Made by a program: the position numbers and the translations under genes
In this document: in pieces, positions 1-42,962 of the stretch
Position numbering within the stretch: the stretch's first letter is position 1
Layout: each line of letters begins with the position of its first letter
DNA from: a virus
Strand: one strand, 5' to 3'
Virus record (IMG/VR): IMGVR_UViG_3300034069_000448
Coordinates: 1 to 42,962 of that record
DNA length: 42,962 bases
Notes under the pieces: generated by a model
Database searches by the model: none
The model's input: only the letters and a program-made list of their open reading frames with translations
What the model was told of the DNA's origin: nothing

Positions 1-141
1 CCTACTACACCTATTGGGCTCGGTACGGCCTCGCGATGGCGCAGCTGCTAGCCCTTCCGGGCGGGACTGATTGGGGTCGCGTGCGCCGGACGTGGTGCTG
101 CTACCGAAAGAGCGCGACGGTCGACTGGTTCGCCCGTCTGC
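1..141. repeat. Terminal overlap copy 1 (identical to 42822..42962)
   Basis: Direct comparison of the two ends: cctactacacctattgggctcgg...ttcgcccgtctgc is present at both ends. Confidence 0.95.
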
Positions 142-164
142 TGGCCCGTCGTCATGCACTATGA
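1..164 (+). CDS. C-terminal end of the wrap-around multi-pass membrane protein (N-terminus at 42536)
   Basis: The frame-3 reading continues the ORF that runs off the window end. Stop TGA at 162..164 overlaps the next ATG (ATGA). Confidence 0.75.
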   Translation, partial: YYTYWARYGLAMAQLLALPGGTDWGRVRRTWCCYRKSATVDWFARLLARRHAL

Positions 165-574
165 GCCGCACCTTCCATTTGGCCCTGCTCTGGCTTTCGT
201 TGCTGGGAGCATCGGAGCCGCCTCGCACCGCCATGCCGGACGCGGTGGAGGCCGGACGAGTAGCGGCGGGGCTCTCGGATTGGCAAACTATCACCTACTT
301 CCTGATCGTCCTTCTGGCGATCTCAACCGTGGAACGGCTGATCGCGGGCTGGCAGTCCCGATCCACCGCGGCGAAGCTGGCGGAGGCAATCGATGGCTTG
401 GCGGAGGCGACGCAGAGCCGCGCGACCGATATCAAGGTAACGCTAGCGCTGATCCAACAGGCGGAGGGCGACCTGAAGGGGCTGCTGACCAACGTCGGCG
501 CCAATCAGGCAGCGATCATCGGCCGCCTGGATCGCTTGGCCGAGGAGTTGAAGGACTCGACGGTGAGGACGTGA
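161..574 (+). CDS. Membrane-anchored coiled-coil protein (i-spanin-like architecture), 137 aa
   Basis: ATGA overlap with the upstream stop. Hydrophobic segments FHLALLWLSLLGA and ITYFLIVLLAISTV are followed by a heptad-like region (AKLAEAIDGLAEA...LDRLAEELK). Confidence 0.65.
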   Translation: MSRTFHLALLWLSLLGASEPPRTAMPDAVEAGRVAAGLSDWQTITYFLIVLLAISTVERLIAGWQSRSTAAKLAEAIDGLAEATQSRATDIKVTLALIQQAEGDLKGLLTNVGANQAAIIGRLDRLAEELKDSTVRT

Positions 575-750: not shown

Positions 751-1160
751 CAACCGCTGATCTGACGCTTTGGCTATACGGCCTATGCTGCTGGGGCGCG
801 TCGCTGAACTTTCCGGCTTGGGCGCGGCTGCTGTTCCGCCAGATGAGCCCGGCGCGCTTGGTGCCGTGGCATCGCGACGTGCGCTTCATGAGCCGGCTAG
901 GTCTAACGATCCTCTCGTTCGGGATCGCCGGGCTGTCGGGCGCCCGGTTCTTCGGTGCGCTGTTCACGGGCACCACAATCGCTTTGCCGGGTGCTTGGGT
1001 GACCGTGTTCATCGCCTGCATGGCATGCGCCGAGCCTTTCTTCCTGCGCATCGACGAGGTCCACGCGATCGAGCGCGGCGGTAAGTCAATCGGTTGGCGA
1101 CTCTATTGGATCGGCGTCGTGACGGGAACGACGCTGCTTATCGTGATGAGGATGGCATGA
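747..1160 (+). CDS. Multi-pass membrane protein (holin candidate), 137 aa
   Basis: ATGA overlaps at both ends. Three to four hydrophobic helices (LTLWLYGLCCWGA, LGLTILSFGIAGL, ALPGAWVTVFIACMA, LYWIGVVTGTTLLIV). Confidence 0.7.
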   Translation: MTTADLTLWLYGLCCWGASLNFPAWARLLFRQMSPARLVPWHRDVRFMSRLGLTILSFGIAGLSGARFFGALFTGTTIALPGAWVTVFIACMACAEPFFLRIDEVHAIERGGKSIGWRLYWIGVVTGTTLLIVMRMA

Positions 1161-1768
1161 TGACCGACCAACGCACCGCCCTATTCGACGCGATCCGGCC
1201 GTTGATGCCGGACAAGCGGTTTCAGCCCGATCATGTGCAGGCAATCGACATGCTGGCGGACAAGCTTGGCTATCAGCGCCTCGACGCGGTGCCGACCAAA
1301 GCAAACGGCCCAACTATCCCCGACAGCTATTGGCCGATGCTCGCCAAGATCGAAAGCGGCGGGAACCCCATGGCGAAGGCGGGAACGTCGTCGGCGTCGG
1401 GCCTGTACCAGTTCATCCGGGCGACGTGGATCGGAGAAGGCGGCGCTTGGGGTAGCGACATGTCGAAGCCCTTTGGTGGGCTGAAGCCTACACCGGATGA
1501 ACAGACAGCACGTGCTAAAACGTTCACCGCCAAGAACGCGGTGGCGCTCCTGCGTGCCGGCATCCCAGTCAACAACGCCTCGCTCTACGCGGCCCACTTT
1601 GCCGGGGTAGGCACGGCTGCCAAGCTGATCGGCGCGGATGTGAAGGCACGGGCAGACCTGATCGCAGGAGAGGCCGCGACCAAGGCAAACGAGTCGATCC
1701 TTCGCGGTAAGACGGTCGGCGACTTCCTGTCGTGGCTTCAGCGGAAAACGGGAGCATGGGCGCGATGA
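1157..1768 (+). CDS. SLT-type lytic transglycosylase / endolysin candidate, 203 aa
   Basis: ATGA overlap start. Motif AKIESGGNP...SSASGLYQFIRATW matches the E-S...GLxQ...TW signature of soluble lytic transglycosylase domains. Confidence 0.75.
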   Translation: MMTDQRTALFDAIRPLMPDKRFQPDHVQAIDMLADKLGYQRLDAVPTKANGPTIPDSYWPMLAKIESGGNPMAKAGTSSASGLYQFIRATWIGEGGAWGSDMSKPFGGLKPTPDEQTARAKTFTAKNAVALLRAGIPVNNASLYAAHFAGVGTAAKLIGADVKARADLIAGEAATKANESILRGKTVGDFLSWLQRKTGAWAR

Positions 1769-2004
1769 CTCTCGCCGCGCAACAGGACGCCACAGCACGG
1801 TGGATGGGCTACCCTGACGCCGAGGCAATGAACCAAGACCACGACACGACGCACATGCTCTTGACCGCCTGGCTCGGCATCCCCTCGCATTCGCTAATGT
1901 GCGCTCGCGGTGAGGATCACGACGCCAAGCTGGCCGCGATCGAGGAGGACGCTGTGCTGTATGTGCAGCGGCTCATGGCGCATCATGGGAAGGCTTGGAT
2001 GTGA
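1765..2004 (+). CDS. Hypothetical protein, 79 aa
   Basis: ATGA overlap with the endolysin stop; GTGA overlap with the next gene. Confidence 0.6.
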   Translation: MTLAAQQDATARWMGYPDAEAMNQDHDTTHMLLTAWLGIPSHSLMCARGEDHDAKLAAIEEDAVLYVQRLMAHHGKAWM

Positions 2005-2249
2005 CCGAACAAGCGCGCTGGGAAATTGGCTTACTCGCACTAGTGGCCCTTGCCGCTGCCTGCCTAGCGGGGTGGTCAATTCAGAAAAACGACGCGTCCG
2101 GTGCGGCTGCCTGGTCGGCGCTGCTCATGGCGATCATCAATACCGTCAAGGAAGCGCGTCAATCCCGCACCATTGACCGGATGCAAGAAGGATTGCAGCG
2201 ATCTGCGCCTACGCCTGAGACTGTCGACAAGACGACGGTGGAGGGGTGA
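2001..2249 (+). CDS. Small two-helix membrane protein (holin/antiholin-like), 82 aa
   Basis: GTG in a GTGA overlap. Hydrophobic helices IGLLALVALAAACLAGW and AAWSALLMAIINTV. Last gene of the coupled cassette. Confidence 0.6.
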   Translation: MTEQARWEIGLLALVALAAACLAGWSIQKNDASGAAAWSALLMAIINTVKEARQSRTIDRMQEGLQRSAPTPETVDKTTVEG

Positions 2250-2250
2250 T

Positions 2251-2276
2251 GCTGCGGGCCGGGCTTGATACCGGCT
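2251..2276 (+). repeat. Repeat A copy 1: gctgcgggccgggcttgataccggct (contains hairpin gccgg/ccggc)
   Basis: The identical 26-mer recurs at 2646..2671. Each copy starts within 2 nt of a stop codon. Confidence 0.9.
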
Positions 2277-2432
2277 ACCCCTGGTTGTTCGCCTCTACCT
2301 CAGACCGCCTGCTACTTCCCAGCGGAGCGACCGCTGATATCTCACAAGTTAGGTTCGGCTCGTTCCCTTGGTTGCTTTTCACCTAGTTCCGGACTTCAGA
2401 TCAAAGCAGGGGTGCTAACCGTCGAATAACTC

Positions 2433-2457
2433 GCGTGTCCATCCACGCCGCCGCAGC
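2433..2457 (+). repeat. Repeat B copy 1: gcgtgtccatccacgccgccgcagc (hairpin gcgtg/cacgc, then ccgcagc complementary to the repeat A 5' end)
   Basis: 24/25 identity with 2742..2766. ccgcagc can pair with gctgcgg at 2251..2257. Confidence 0.85.
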
Positions 2458-2481
2458 CCAACGATACTACGGAGAACCCGA

Positions 2482-2646
2482 ATGAAAATCAACCTCACTC
2501 GCCTCGCCAAATCCGCCGTCCGCGTCGTCAAGCAGAACCCCGACAAGGCGCTGATCGTCGCGTCCATGCTGGCGCCGGGGATTGTGGCTAAGGTCGCGTC
2601 CAAGGTGGTGCCGGTCGTGGTGGCGTTGGGGAAGCCTAAGCGGTAG
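2482..2646 (+). CDS. 54-aa strongly cationic amphipathic peptide (MKINLTRLAKSAVRVVKQNPDKALIVASMLAPGIVAKVASKVVPVVVALGKPKR)
   Basis: ATG is preceded by GGAGA at -11..-7. Composition is 8 K + 3 R against 1 D (net about +10). It is below the ORF-track length cutoff and is bracketed by repeats B and A. Confidence 0.5.
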   Translation: MKINLTRLAKSAVRVVKQNPDKALIVASMLAPGIVAKVASKVVPVVVALGKPKR

Positions 2647-2671
2647 CTGCGGGCCGGGCTTGATACCGGCT
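2646..2671 (+). repeat. Repeat A copy 2
   Basis: Identical to 2251..2276. It begins at the last base of the TAG stop of the 54-aa ORF. Confidence 0.9.
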
Positions 2672-2741
2672 TCTACCAGCGGGCGAAGTAGGCTGGTAGT
2701 CTATATGGTCCTTGCCTAATCGCAGTTGCCTCGCCGACAAA

Positions 2742-2766
2742 GCGTGTCCTTCCACGCCGCCGCAGC
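2742..2766 (+). repeat. Repeat B copy 2: gcgtgtccttccacgccgccgcagc
   Basis: One mismatch to copy 1, located in the hairpin loop. It closes a stem with 2646..2652. Confidence 0.85.
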
Positions 2767-2811
2767 ACATCGCGGCTAGCATAGTCTAGCGCGATTTGCT
2801 AGTGTTATAGG

Positions 2812-2895
2812 GCTGCGGCATGTAGCTCAGTTGCGTCTAGAGCGTCCGATGCGTCGGGAGGTATGTGGGTTCGATTCCCGCCTTGTCGCAGCACC
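2812..2895 (+). ncRNA. tRNA-like element / degenerate tRNA with canonical D-arm and T-arm, an 11-bp acceptor-type stem, and the anticodon arm replaced by a 5-bp hairpin with a UGCG tetraloop
   Basis: Hand fold:
- Acceptor-type stem: gctgcggcatg (2812-2822) pairs with cttgtcgcagc (2882-2892).
- D-arm: gctc-agttgcgtcta-gagc.
- Anticodon-arm position: tccga-tgcg-tcggg.
- T-arm: gtggg-ttcgatt-cccgc.
- An alternative register gives only a 3-bp anticodon stem with loop aTGCGtc (GCG, Arg). Confidence 0.55.
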
Positions 2896-42406: not shown

Positions 42407-42532
42407 ATGACGAAGCCGACCAAGCCCGTGGATGACGTGATCGAGAAGGTGGCGCCGGTGAAGCCGCAGGATAGCGGGCCGAAGACGCCTCCCCCGCCTC
42501 CGCCCACGCCTCCGCTTCCCGGCGACGACTGA
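42407..42532 (+). CDS. 41-aa proline-rich peptide (MTKPTKPVDDVIEKVAPVKPQDSGPKTPPPPPPTPPLPGDD)
   Basis: GGAG 8 nt upstream of the ATG. It sits directly before the wrap-around membrane protein. It has no Cys, so it is not a lipoprotein. Confidence 0.4.
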   Translation: MTKPTKPVDDVIEKVAPVKPQDSGPKTPPPPPPTPPLPGDD

Positions 42533-42535
42533 CGC

Positions 42536-42962
42536 ATGTCGCTCCCCGAACTCTCGTATCAGGCCGGCCTTGTCGCCGCGCTGCTGCTCGCCCCGTTCAA
42601 TCGAATGGCGGCGGTGGTGATCCTGGTGTGGGTGTTCGGGGTGTTCGGCATGCATCTCGGTGTGCCGGAAGGGCAGATCGACATCATCGGCGACACCGCC
42701 GGCCTCTGCTACGCGCTCGCATACTGTATGGTTCGCTATCAGCCGTCGAGCCTGTTCGCCGCCATCCTGTTCGCGCCGATGATCGCCAATGACGTTGCGG
42801 TCATCAAAGGGTGGGCTGACTCCTACTACACCTATTGGGCTCGGTACGGCCTCGCGATGGCGCAGCTGCTAGCCCTTCCGGGCGGGACTGATTGGGGTCG
42901 CGTGCGCCGGACGTGGTGCTGCTACCGAAAGAGCGCGACGGTCGACTGGTTCGCCCGTCTGC
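42536..42962 (+). CDS. N-terminal part of the wrap-around multi-pass membrane protein (continues at 142..164 after removing the overlap; 149 aa in total)
   Basis: An ATG at 42536 with an open frame to the window end. The frame continues in phase at the window start. Hydrophobic helices include AGLVAALLLAPF, AAVVILVWVFGVFG and LFAAILFAPMIA. Confidence 0.7.
   Translation, partial: MSLPELSYQAGLVAALLLAPFNRMAAVVILVWVFGVFGMHLGVPEGQIDIIGDTAGLCYALAYCMVRYQPSSLFAAILFAPMIANDVAVIKGWADSYYTYWARYGLAMAQLLALPGGTDWGRVRRTWCCYRKSATVDWFARL
42822..42962. repeat. Terminal overlap copy 2 (identical to 1..141)
   Basis: Same 141-nt string as the window start. It lies inside a CDS that closes only when the ends are joined. 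Confidence 0.95.

What the first reader, a model, noticed from the sequence alone, without database searches (positions are those of the whole stretch)
2482..2646. 54-aa highly cationic amphipathic peptide at the end of a lysis cassette that lacks an o-spanin: disruptin-like candidate
- The ORF has a GGAGA SD sequence and encodes 11 basic residues against 1 acidic residue, with two hydrophobic/amphipathic stretches.
- I could not find a lipobox-containing o-spanin, either embedded or separate, anywhere in the cassette.
- Established precedent: phage phiKT gp28, a 56-aa cationic peptide, replaces spanins for outer-membrane disruption.
- The ORF is bracketed by complementary repeat elements. ccgcagc lies 25 nt upstream of the ATG and gctgcgg starts at the stop codon. 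Together they could close a stem around the whole ORF, reminiscent of the fold-back control of hok-type type I toxin mRNAs.
Basis: inference. Interest (0 to 1): 0.62.

Follow-up and report, generated by a model that had tools for sequence, protein, structure and literature searches.

The report
Cationic lysis peptide replacing phage spanins
A real, conserved 54-residue positively charged peptide gene closes the cell-bursting gene set of a complete Sphingomonas-type phage that has no outer-membrane-breaking spanin genes. Sister phages carry ordinary spanin genes at exactly that position, so the peptide is a good but untested candidate for a new outer-membrane-disrupting lysis peptide.

Summary
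ORF 2482-2646 is real. Its GC by codon position is 0.62/0.38/0.89, it has a GGAGA ribosome-binding site, and dN/dS in close pairs is 0.09-0.42. It founds an undescribed family of 46-54 residues (invariant N19, P20, A31, P44) with no Pfam, PHROG or NCBIfam match.

I found the family in 13 distinct phage or prophage loci. It is always the last gene of the lysis cassette and usually overlaps (ATGA) a small 2-TM protein gene.

The window is a complete 42.8-kb genome, and lipobox scans validated on controls find no o-spanin. Eleven sister loci with an orthologous 2-TM gene carry Rz/Rz1 spanins in the same slot and lack the peptide. The two states are interleaved on the 2-TM tree.

Like phiKT gp28, the peptide has no segment predicted to insert as a transmembrane helix, but the two are not homologous. 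The disruptin-like reading is therefore supported by comparison, not shown (confidence about 0.5).

The hok-like fold-back is not supported. The two 7-mers are closing helices of two copies of a widespread phage RNA module, and no other family locus has the bracket.

The parts
2482..2646 (+). 54-aa cationic peptide gene, founder of an undescribed 46-54 aa family; candidate outer-membrane disruptor
   Evidence: ORF. GC1/2/3 0.62/0.38/0.89. Homologs. Family alignment. dN/dS. AF2 gives three helices (5-18, 20-30, 32-50) at pLDDT 68.
2471..2475 (+). Shine-Dalgarno GGAGA, 6 nt before the ATG. It replaces the ATGA translational coupling seen in relatives.
   Evidence: Sequence. Relatives overlap the upstream gene stop.
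2001..2249 (+). 82-aa 2-TM membrane protein (class II holin-like architecture, function not shown). This is the gene that normally precedes either the peptide or an Rz/Rz1 spanin pair.
   Evidence: At least 50 homologs, some in Sphingomonas genomes. Alignment. Downstream slot classified. Tree.
1160..1768 (+). Endolysin with an SLT/transglycosylase-like domain
   Evidence: Pfam PF06737 and PF01464 (weak); phrog_4067 transglycosylase 1.9e-17.
1765..2004 (+). 79-aa soluble protein of the cassette, 95% identical in L001
747..1160 (+). 137-aa 4-TM membrane protein (holin or antiholin candidate)
   Evidence: Translation. No family match.
161..574 (+). 137-aa protein with one TM segment plus a coiled coil. 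It looks like an i-spanin, but the same architecture coexists with true Rz/Rz1 in L075, and it matches no Rz-like PHROG.
2251..2460 (+). RNA module 1 (5' GCTGCGGGCCGGGCTTGATACCGGCT ... 3' GCGTGTCCATCCACGCCGCCGCAGC), inserted between the 2-TM gene and the peptide gene.
2646..2769 (+). RNA module 2, starting at the G of the peptide's TAG stop.
2813..2889 (+). tRNA-like module 3, with the same GCTGCGG...CGCAGC closure
   Evidence: Rfam tRNA 37.2 bits at 2816-2889 (gathering 29). The anticodon loop is replaced by a 4-nt loop. ARAGORN calls nothing.
42536..42962 (+). Start of a 149-aa 4-TM protein gene that runs through the terminal repeat to position 164. The cassette begins at 42407 with a 41-aa Pro-rich ORF.
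   Evidence: Circularised ORF call.

Best explanation
ORF 2482-2646 encodes a small, helical, strongly cationic lysis peptide made late in infection from the lysis operon. It takes over the last step of lysis, breaching the outer membrane, which in sister phages is done by an Rz/Rz1 spanin pair encoded at the same position.

Proposed mechanism (inferred):
- The peptide is made in the cytoplasm without a signal peptide.
- It binds membranes through an amphipathic N-terminal helix (residues 4-18) and a proline-kinked hydrophobic C-terminal part with a basic tail.
- Once holin and endolysin have opened the inner membrane and the wall, or already before, it weakens the anionic outer leaflet, as phiKT gp28 does.

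Shown: the gene is real, conserved and under purifying selection. It is always the last lysis-cassette gene. The genome has no lipoprotein spanin. Peptide and spanins replace each other at one slot.

Inferred: that the replacement means functional equivalence, and how the peptide acts.
For: 1. Coding and conserved. GC3 is 0.89. There are 13 distinct loci plus 4 orphan proteins, with invariant N19, P20, A31 and P44. dN/dS is 0.09-0.42 in close pairs.

2. Position. The gene is the last gene of the lysis cassette in every locus. It overlaps (ATGA) a small 2-TM gene in 10 loci. Where an RNA module separates the two genes (window, L011), the peptide gene is still kept; in the window it has its own SD.

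3. No spanin. The window is a complete genome, and two lipobox scans found no credible o-spanin. The scans recovered the o-spanins in all control loci.

4. Slot swap. Eleven loci with orthologs of the same 2-TM protein carry i-spanin/o-spanin pairs, or a lipoprotein, right after it (L074, L075, L081, L083, L084, L088, L091, L093, L096, L097, L098). Four of the predicted i-spanins and one o-spanin match PHROG 'Rz-like spanin' families. None of the eleven has the peptide, and none of the 13 peptide loci has an o-spanin. Fisher's test gives p=4e-7, not corrected for relatedness.

5. Gene-by-gene orthology. L070 (peptide) and L074 (spanins) are orthologous gene by gene except for the last slot. 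On the 2-TM tree the states are interleaved: the clade (window, L070, (L074, L097)) has 93/90 support, and the tree needs 8 label changes.

6. Physical class. Net charge is +4 to +10 and the N-terminal helix has muH 0.68. The best 19-residue window scores +6.8 to +9.1 kcal/mol for membrane insertion, like gp28 (+9.2). True TM segments of the same cassettes score -1.1 to +2.5.

7. Other peptides in the slot. In spanin-less sister loci the same slot holds other, unrelated small peptides with a cationic amphipathic N-terminal part (L078; L085-L090).
Against:
- The peptide is not homologous to gp28 (hhalign probability 0.1%).
- It is more hydrophobic than gp28 (GRAVY +0.4 to +0.9 against -0.06; Kyte-Doolittle 19-residue maximum up to 1.9). 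Inner-membrane residence is therefore not excluded.
- The invariant N-P, A-P and P positions suggest a specific fold or partner rather than generic membrane damage.
- The L002 copy has an in-frame TAG at codon 15, so the gene can be lost or broken, or the read is wrong.
- For the relatives only +/-3-6 kb was scanned, not whole genomes.
- The exclusivity count is not phylogenetically independent, and the 2-TM tree is weakly resolved (1 starred branch).
- The insertion scale was recalled from memory and ignores position in the helix.
Confidence: 0.5

Rival explanations
1. The peptide is an inner-membrane accessory of the holin system (an antiholin, a holin co-factor like LambdaSo Lcc6, or a pinholin-type depolariser). 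It acts with the 2-TM protein it is usually coupled to. In these phages outer-membrane rupture needs no dedicated protein or uses an unrecognised one.
For: - It is translationally coupled to a small 2-TM (class II holin-like) gene in 10 loci.
- Its C-terminal half is hydrophobic, with a Kyte-Doolittle 19-residue maximum of 1.3-1.9.
- The invariant prolines suggest a defined fold or partner.
- Lcc6 (65 aa) shows that extra small membrane factors can be needed at the holin step.
Against: - The same 2-TM family works without the peptide in 11 spanin-bearing loci.
- The peptide pairs with four unrelated 2-TM families, so no obligate partnership exists.
- Its presence tracks spanin absence, not holin type.
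- No segment is predicted to insert as a TM helix (+6.8 to +9.1 kcal/mol, against -1.1 to +2.5 for real TM segments).
Confidence: 0.22
2. The peptide is a non-lysis 'moron' at the end of the late operon, for example a superinfection-exclusion factor, a membrane-active toxin or a lysogenic-conversion peptide. This is the position bor and lom occupy downstream of Rz/Rz1 in lambda.
For: - In the window, L011 and L030 the gene is uncoupled from the cassette and has its own SD.
- It lies at the operon end next to mobile-looking RNA modules.
- The family is rare: 1 of 401 Sphingomonadaceae-type species genomes searched.
Against: - In 10 of 13 loci it overlaps the preceding lysis gene, which implies co-translation with late lysis genes.
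- No promoter-like site lies upstream in the window.
- A moron reading does not explain the mutual exclusion with spanins.
Confidence: 0.13
3. The ORF is a hok-type type I toxin whose mRNA is kept closed by pairing of ccgcagc (2451-2457) with gctgcgg (2646-2652).
For: The two 7-mers are perfectly complementary and flank the ORF. The peptide is small and hydrophobic, like Hok.
Against: - Each 7-mer has its own partner inside a separate RNA module (2251-2257 with 2451-2457; 2646-2652 with 2760-2766).
- Of 57 distinct modules elsewhere, 54 carry both conserved ends, and the hairpin in the conserved 3' block covaries.
- None of the 11 other peptide loci examined has the bracket.
- No promoter-like site for an antisense RNA was found.
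- The fold of 2240-2900 is no more stable than its shuffles (z = -0.53).
Confidence: 0.03
4. The ORF is a chance open frame and is not expressed.
For: It is short, has no database family, and one relative carries a stop codon.
Against: - GC3 is 0.89 with GC2 0.38.
- Length, frame and motifs are conserved over 13 loci at 36-79% identity.
- dN/dS reaches as low as 0.09.
- It has an SD or ATGA coupling in all twelve loci examined.
Confidence: 0.03

Closest known systems
Disruptin gp28 of Escherichia phage phiKT (Holt et al., bioRxiv 10.1101/515445; cited as Holt et al. 2022 in PMC12819732)
   Same: - Similar size (54 against 56 aa).
- Strongly cationic (+10 against +7).
- Predicted helical, with no signal peptide, lipobox or predicted TM helix.
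- Encoded inside the lysis cassette of a phage of a Gram-negative host with no lipoprotein spanin.
   Different: - No sequence relationship (hhalign probability 0.1%).
- Much more hydrophobic (GRAVY +0.52 against -0.06).
- Invariant N-P / A-P / P kinks.
- Sits last in the cassette after a 2-TM gene, not between endolysin and holin.
- The host is an alphaproteobacterium, probably Sphingomonas.
- Function untested.
Two-component spanins Rz/Rz1 (lambda type), as found in sister loci L074, L075, L081, L084, L088, L091, L096, L097, L098
   Same: They occupy the same genomic slot, directly after the orthologous 2-TM gene at the end of the lysis cassette. The presumed role is the same: the last step of lysis.
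   Different: The peptide has no TM anchor, no periplasmic coiled coil, no lipobox and is a single small protein. It cannot span the periplasm.
Lcc6 of Shewanella prophage LambdaSo (bioRxiv 10.1101/2024.01.23.576932)
   Same: A small (65 aa) extra lysis factor of unknown family found in a lysis region.
   Different: Lcc6 is a transmembrane protein acting at the holin step, and it coexists with Rz/Rz1. Here no TM helix is predicted and spanins are absent.
Hok/Sok-type type I toxin loci
   Same: A small hydrophobic peptide, with complementary sequences on either side of the ORF in this one genome.
   Different: The complementary 7-mers belong to separate RNA modules and are absent from all relatives. 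No antisense promoter was found. The gene is part of a late lysis operon.
Cationic helical antimicrobial peptides (LL-37; melittin-type proline-kinked hydrophobic helix with a basic tail). Comparison from general knowledge; LL-37 as discussed.
   Same: Net positive charge, an amphipathic helix (muH 0.68), and a proline-kinked hydrophobic helix ending in a basic cluster (GKPKR).
   Different: Made inside the cell that it would kill. The sequence is conserved at defined positions. No activity data exist.

Membership tests
Disruptin (functional class founded by phiKT gp28) | Small cationic, helical peptide without signal peptide, lipobox or TM helix | tested here: met
   54 aa, net +10. AF2 predicts all-helical at pLDDT 68. 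The best insertion score is +6.9 kcal/mol, like gp28 at +9.2, while real TM segments score -1.1 to +2.5 (scale recalled from memory).
Disruptin (functional class founded by phiKT gp28) | Encoded in the lysis cassette of a phage of a Gram-negative host that has no spanin of any type | tested here: met
   Whole 42.8-kb genome scanned in six frames, with controls recovered. Relatives lie in Sphingomonas genomes.
Disruptin (functional class founded by phiKT gp28) | Sequence relationship to gp28 | tested here: not met
   hhalign probability 0.1%, E 0.54. The class is functional, and gp28 itself had no homologs beyond one near-identical phage.
Disruptin (functional class founded by phiKT gp28) | Complements a spanin defect; its loss gives spherical-cell arrest; the synthetic peptide permeabilises the outer membrane | not testable with these tools
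   Needs bench work. The nearest proxy is the natural slot swap with Rz/Rz1.
o-spanin (Rz1 type) or u-spanin | N-terminal lipoprotein signal with a lipobox Cys | tested here: not met
   The peptide has no Cys and no signal peptide. No lipobox ORF lies in the cassette.
Holin / antiholin | At least one transmembrane helix plus a charged cytoplasmic tail | tested here: inconclusive
   Kyte-Doolittle 19-residue maximum is 1.73, borderline. The insertion score is +6.9 kcal/mol with 2 Lys and 2 Pro in the segment. A basic tail is present.
Hok-type type I toxin-antitoxin | Conserved long-range fold-back of the mRNA and an antisense RNA gene | tested here: not met
   The bracket is absent from 11 of 11 other family loci examined. 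The 7-mers pair within the modules. No antisense promoter-like site was found.
tRNA (module 3, 2816-2889) | Cloverleaf with a 7-nt anticodon loop | tested here: not met
   Rfam tRNA scores 37.2 bits (gathering 29), but the anticodon loop is reduced to 4 nt, and ARAGORN finds no tRNA. It is tRNA-like, not a decoding tRNA.

The most novel reading that the evidence does not exclude
Small cationic peptides of at least three unrelated families have repeatedly replaced the Rz/Rz1 spanin pair at one and the same slot of the lysis cassette in Sphingomonas-type phages. The families are this one, the 55-aa L078 type and the 'MGLGKITRGLGKVG' type. Disruptins would then be a common, polyphyletic third solution for outer-membrane rupture. 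They would also work in hosts whose outer leaflet is glycosphingolipid rather than LPS (general knowledge about Sphingomonas). That would question the LPS cation-displacement model proposed for gp28.
Probability: 0.4. Interest if true: 0.75.

Novelty: new variant of a known kind. Interest (0 to 1): 0.6.

Why it matters
Only one disruptin (phiKT gp28) has been shown experimentally. A 2026 paper still calls it an open question whether the roughly 13% of spanin-less phages use disruptins, and notes that such genes cannot be predicted systematically (PMC12819732).

This locus offers three things:
- A defined, conserved new family with a natural genetic control: near-isogenic cassettes that differ only in peptide versus Rz/Rz1.
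- A simple rule for finding further candidates, namely the slot after the conserved 2-TM gene.
- A test of the mechanism in a host group with a different outer-membrane lipid.

If confirmed, the family would add membrane-active peptide scaffolds and improve phage lysis-gene annotation.

Tried and rejected
- Family libraries. Pfam, PHROGs and NCBIfam on the peptide and on all 14 family members gave nothing meaningful. A TraQ hit at E 0.0035 in 4 members was treated as noise from a hydrophobic peptide.
- Phage records. tblastn of the peptide against 50,697 phage records found no match.
- GTDB species genomes. A pattern scan for the peptide found none. A profile search of 401 genomes of the family of Sphingomonas sp. 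Leaf32 found only that genome itself.
- Homology to gp28 or to the other slot peptides was rejected.
- The TM plus coiled-coil protein 161-574 as an orphan i-spanin was rejected as unsupported. It has no Rz-like PHROG match, and the same architecture coexists with true spanins in L075. Sequence similarity to that protein is not significant.
- The fold of 2240-2900 is not more stable than its shuffles (z = -0.53), so thermodynamics alone does not decide which 7-mers pair. Comparison decides.
- The 20-nt inverted repeat 2450-2469 / 2800-2819 is, by my inspection of the sequence, the shared GCCGCAGCCC/GGGCTGCGGC plus 6 of 10 chance matches. It is not a specific long-range helix.
- Rfam found nothing over modules 1 and 2, at the gathering threshold or at E up to 10.
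- The promoter and terminator scan found nothing near the gene.
- The look-up of encoding contigs found no record for P0002.
- A structure search was not run, because a 54-residue helical model at pLDDT 68 would give meaningless matches.

Full report
**What the window is**

The window is a whole genome record of 42,962 nt with a 141-nt terminal direct repeat and 63.8% GC. Its large terminase is closest to those of Acetobacter, Stenotrophomonas, Bradyrhizobium and Rhizobium phages, at 47-55% identity.

Homologs of its lysis proteins lie in Sphingomonas genomes. The flanking RNA element occurs in Acetobacteraceae, Sphingomonas and Novosphingobium genomes. The host is therefore a Gram-negative alphaproteobacterium, probably a Sphingomonas.

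**The observation**

ORF 2482-2646 encodes MKINLTRLAKSAVRVVKQNPDKALIVASMLAPGIVAKVASKVVPVVVALGKPKR.
- GGAGA lies 6 nt before the ATG.
- The peptide has 11 basic and 1 acidic residue.
- GC at codon positions 1/2/3 is 0.62/0.38/0.89, a clear coding signature for this genome.
- The genome-wide absence of an o-spanin holds. Two six-frame lipobox scans gave only antisense TTG-start mini-ORFs with non-coding composition. Every o-spanin of the control loci was recovered by at least one of the scans.

**A real, undescribed protein family**

Word-indexed and exhaustive HMMER searches found small proteins of 49-54 aa at 45-79% identity. A profile search over all fetched loci, plus look-ups, raised this to 13 distinct loci:
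- the window, L001, L002, L003, L004 and L005;
- L070/L077, L072/L079 and L095;
- L030/L069, L040, L011 and L050.

The 14-sequence alignment has invariant N19, P20, A31 and P44, and nearly invariant N4, K17, A23, P32, A39 and V47.

Close pairs give dN/dS of 0.09-0.42. Distant pairs are saturated and uninformative.

AlphaFold2 with a 7-sequence alignment gives three helices (5-18, 20-30, 32-50) at modest confidence, pLDDT 68.

Pfam, PHROGs and NCBIfam hold nothing, and no deposited phage matches. The family is rare: 1 of 401 species genomes of the family of Sphingomonas sp. Leaf32 has it.

**Context**

In every locus the gene is the last gene of the lysis cassette, downstream of the endolysin and of a small 2-TM protein gene.
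- It overlaps the 2-TM gene's stop (ATGA) in 10 loci.
- The endolysins differ: SLT-like, GH19-like and GH24 lysozyme.
- The 2-TM proteins fall into four unrelated families.

The peptide therefore travels as a module that is not tied to one partner.

In the window the coupling was broken by the insertion of a 210-nt RNA module (2251-2460) directly after the stop of the 2-TM gene. The peptide gene then has its own SD. L011 shows the same kind of insertion.

**The key result: a slot swap with spanins**

The window's 2-TM protein (2001-2249) has at least 50 homologs. I examined what follows them in 21 loci.
- Four loci carry this peptide family: the window, L070, L072 and L095.
- Eleven loci carry an N-terminally anchored i-spanin-like protein with an embedded, overlapping or separate lipobox o-spanin, or a lipoprotein: L074, L075, L081, L083, L084, L088, L091, L093, L096, L097 and L098. 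Four of the predicted i-spanins (L074, L088, L097) and one o-spanin (L074) match PHROG 'Rz-like spanin' families; the best hit is L088 to phrog_2466 at 3e-8.
- Five loci carry other small peptides with a cationic amphipathic N-terminal part and no spanin in the locus: L078 (55 aa, net +7), and L085, L086, L089 and L090 (63-71 aa, starting MGLGKITRGLGKVG). These are not homologous to the present family.
- One locus (L092) carries something else. L082 ends at the contig edge and L087 repeats L086's peptide; neither went into the tree.

Across all loci, 0 of 13 peptide loci have an o-spanin and 0 of 11 spanin loci have the peptide. Fisher's test gives p=4e-7, uncorrected for relatedness.

L070 (peptide) and L074 (spanins) are orthologous gene by gene: 39%, 37%, 26% and 70% identity for two membrane proteins, the endolysin and the 2-TM protein. 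Only the last slot differs.

On a tree of the 2-TM proteins the states are interleaved:
- The clade (window, L070, (L074, L097)) has 93/90 support.
- L088 (spanins) and L089 (other peptide) have identical 2-TM proteins.
- The tree needs 8 label changes where 3 is the minimum.

The tree rests on 89 columns and is weakly resolved, so I take it only as evidence that the swap happened more than once.

**Physical character**

The family has net charge +4 to +10 and an amphipathic N-terminal helix (muH 0.68 over 18 residues). The C-terminal part is hydrophobic and proline-kinked, and in the window it ends in a basic cluster, GKPKR.

It is more hydrophobic than gp28: GRAVY +0.52 against -0.06.

With a position-independent biological hydrophobicity scale (values recalled from memory), the best 19-residue windows score as follows:

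| Sequence | Best 19-residue window (kcal/mol) |
|---|---|
| This family | +6.8 to +9.1 |
| phiKT gp28 | +9.2 |
| L078 peptide | +9.6 |
| L086 peptide | +6.5 |
| Real TM segments of the 2-TM protein, the i-spanins and the TM plus coiled-coil protein | -1.1 to +2.5 |

The peptide therefore falls in the class of membrane-surface-active peptides, not of integral membrane proteins. This favours the disruptin-like reading over a holin accessory, without excluding the latter.

**Comparison with the known disruptin**

gp28 of phiKT is 56 aa with net +7, is membrane-bound without a TM segment, complements lambda Rz/Rz1 mutants and acts like LL-37. The present family shares its size, charge, helicity, lack of targeting signals and spanin-less context. 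It shares no sequence with gp28 (hhalign probability 0.1%), and it sits last in the cassette rather than between endolysin and holin.

The disruptin class is functional, so membership cannot be settled without an assay.

**The flanking 7-mers**

They are the outer helices of two copies of an RNA module. Each copy has an exact 26-nt 5' block (GCTGCGGGCCGGGCTTGATACCGGCT; 2251 and 2646) and a 31-nt 3' block (GCGTGTCC(A/T)TCCACGCCGCCGCAGC...; 2433 and 2742). Each module folds on its own into an outer helix, a 5-bp hairpin just inside the 5' strand, a variable core and a 5-bp hairpin in the 3' block.

The exact 26-mer occurs in 45 IMG/VR contigs and 19 species genomes. Of 57 distinct instances:
- 54 carry the 3' block, and the modules are 81-207 nt long;
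- the cores are hypervariable;
- the hairpin in the 3' block shows compensatory changes (GCGTG/CACGC, GCACG/CGTGC, GCCCG/CGGGC, ACTCG/CGAGT, GTGTG/CACAC and others).

No Rfam family covers them. None of the other 11 peptide loci examined has the bracket. The hok-like fold-back is therefore an accident of two module insertions.

Whether the modules act as processing sites that release a separate peptide mRNA is an open idea that I could not test.

**Weaknesses**
- The L002 copy has an in-frame TAG.
- Relatives were scanned only over +/-3-6 kb.
- The exclusivity statistics ignore relatedness.
- The hydrophobic C-terminal half and the invariant prolines leave room for an inner-membrane or partner-specific role.

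**Verdict**

The disruptin-like interpretation is supported by comparison but not shown (about 0.5). The hok-like regulation is rejected.

The scan has reported the same kind of case before on other DNA: a different 35-residue peptide in spanin-less HP1-like E. coli prophages. I did not use those notes as evidence.

Noticed in passing
window 2251-2460, 2646-2769; loci L006-L069: A widespread, unnamed structured-RNA module of alphaproteobacterial phages and prophages. It has an exact 26-nt 5' block, a conserved 25-31-nt 3' block with a covarying 5-bp hairpin, a closing helix GCTGCGG/CCGCAGC, and a hypervariable 30-150-nt core. I counted 57 distinct instances, 81-207 nt long. It often starts at or 1 nt after the stop codon of the upstream gene (TAG sharing its G, or TGA-T). 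No Rfam match.
   Followed up: partly
window 2813-2889; L002 6193-6285: The third module is tRNA-like: Rfam tRNA 37.2 bits, a G3:U70-type pair in the Rfam alignment, and a 4-nt loop in place of the anticodon loop. ARAGORN calls nothing. L002 has the same flanks (GGCTGCGGC ... CGCAGCAC TTAAGTCCGGTTCGCCGGCC) around a different, non-tRNA-like core. The flanks are conserved while the cargo changes.
   Followed up: partly
L002 6001-6162: The peptide gene of this 44-kb IMG/VR contig has an in-frame TAG at codon 15 (AAG in the relatives). It is a broken copy or a sequencing error. No spanin lies in that locus either.
   Followed up: no
L078 4249-4416; L085 4311-4502; L086/L087 4317-4532; L089 4338-4553; L090 4219-4431: Two further unrelated small peptide families, each with a cationic amphipathic N-terminal part, occupy the same post-2-TM slot in spanin-less sister cassettes. 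One is 55 aa (MKIPGLGKIATFALKIGVKF...). The other is 63-71 aa (MGLGKITRGLGKVG... with an acidic tail).
   Followed up: partly
L088 4302-4814 versus L089 4219-4553: These two IMG/VR phages have identical 2-TM proteins. One carries Rz/Rz1 spanins downstream. The other carries a 40-aa hydrophobic ORF plus a 71-aa cationic peptide. This looks like a near-isogenic natural swap.
   Followed up: partly
window 42407-42532; L011 1039-1215; L030 4232-4393: A small proline-rich ORF (41-58 aa, runs of PPPPPP, no signal peptide) recurs near the start of these lysis cassettes, after the tail fibre gene. Its role is unknown.
   Followed up: no
window 1-141 and 42822-42962: A 141-nt exact terminal direct repeat shows that the record is a complete, circularly closed or terminally redundant genome. 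The lysis cassette runs across the junction; a 149-aa 4-TM gene spans 42536 to 164.
   Followed up: yes
L030 5696-5926: In L030/L069 a 76-aa soluble ORF lies between the 2-TM gene and the peptide gene, and the peptide has its own GGAGGG site. The coupling is therefore not universal.
   Followed up: no
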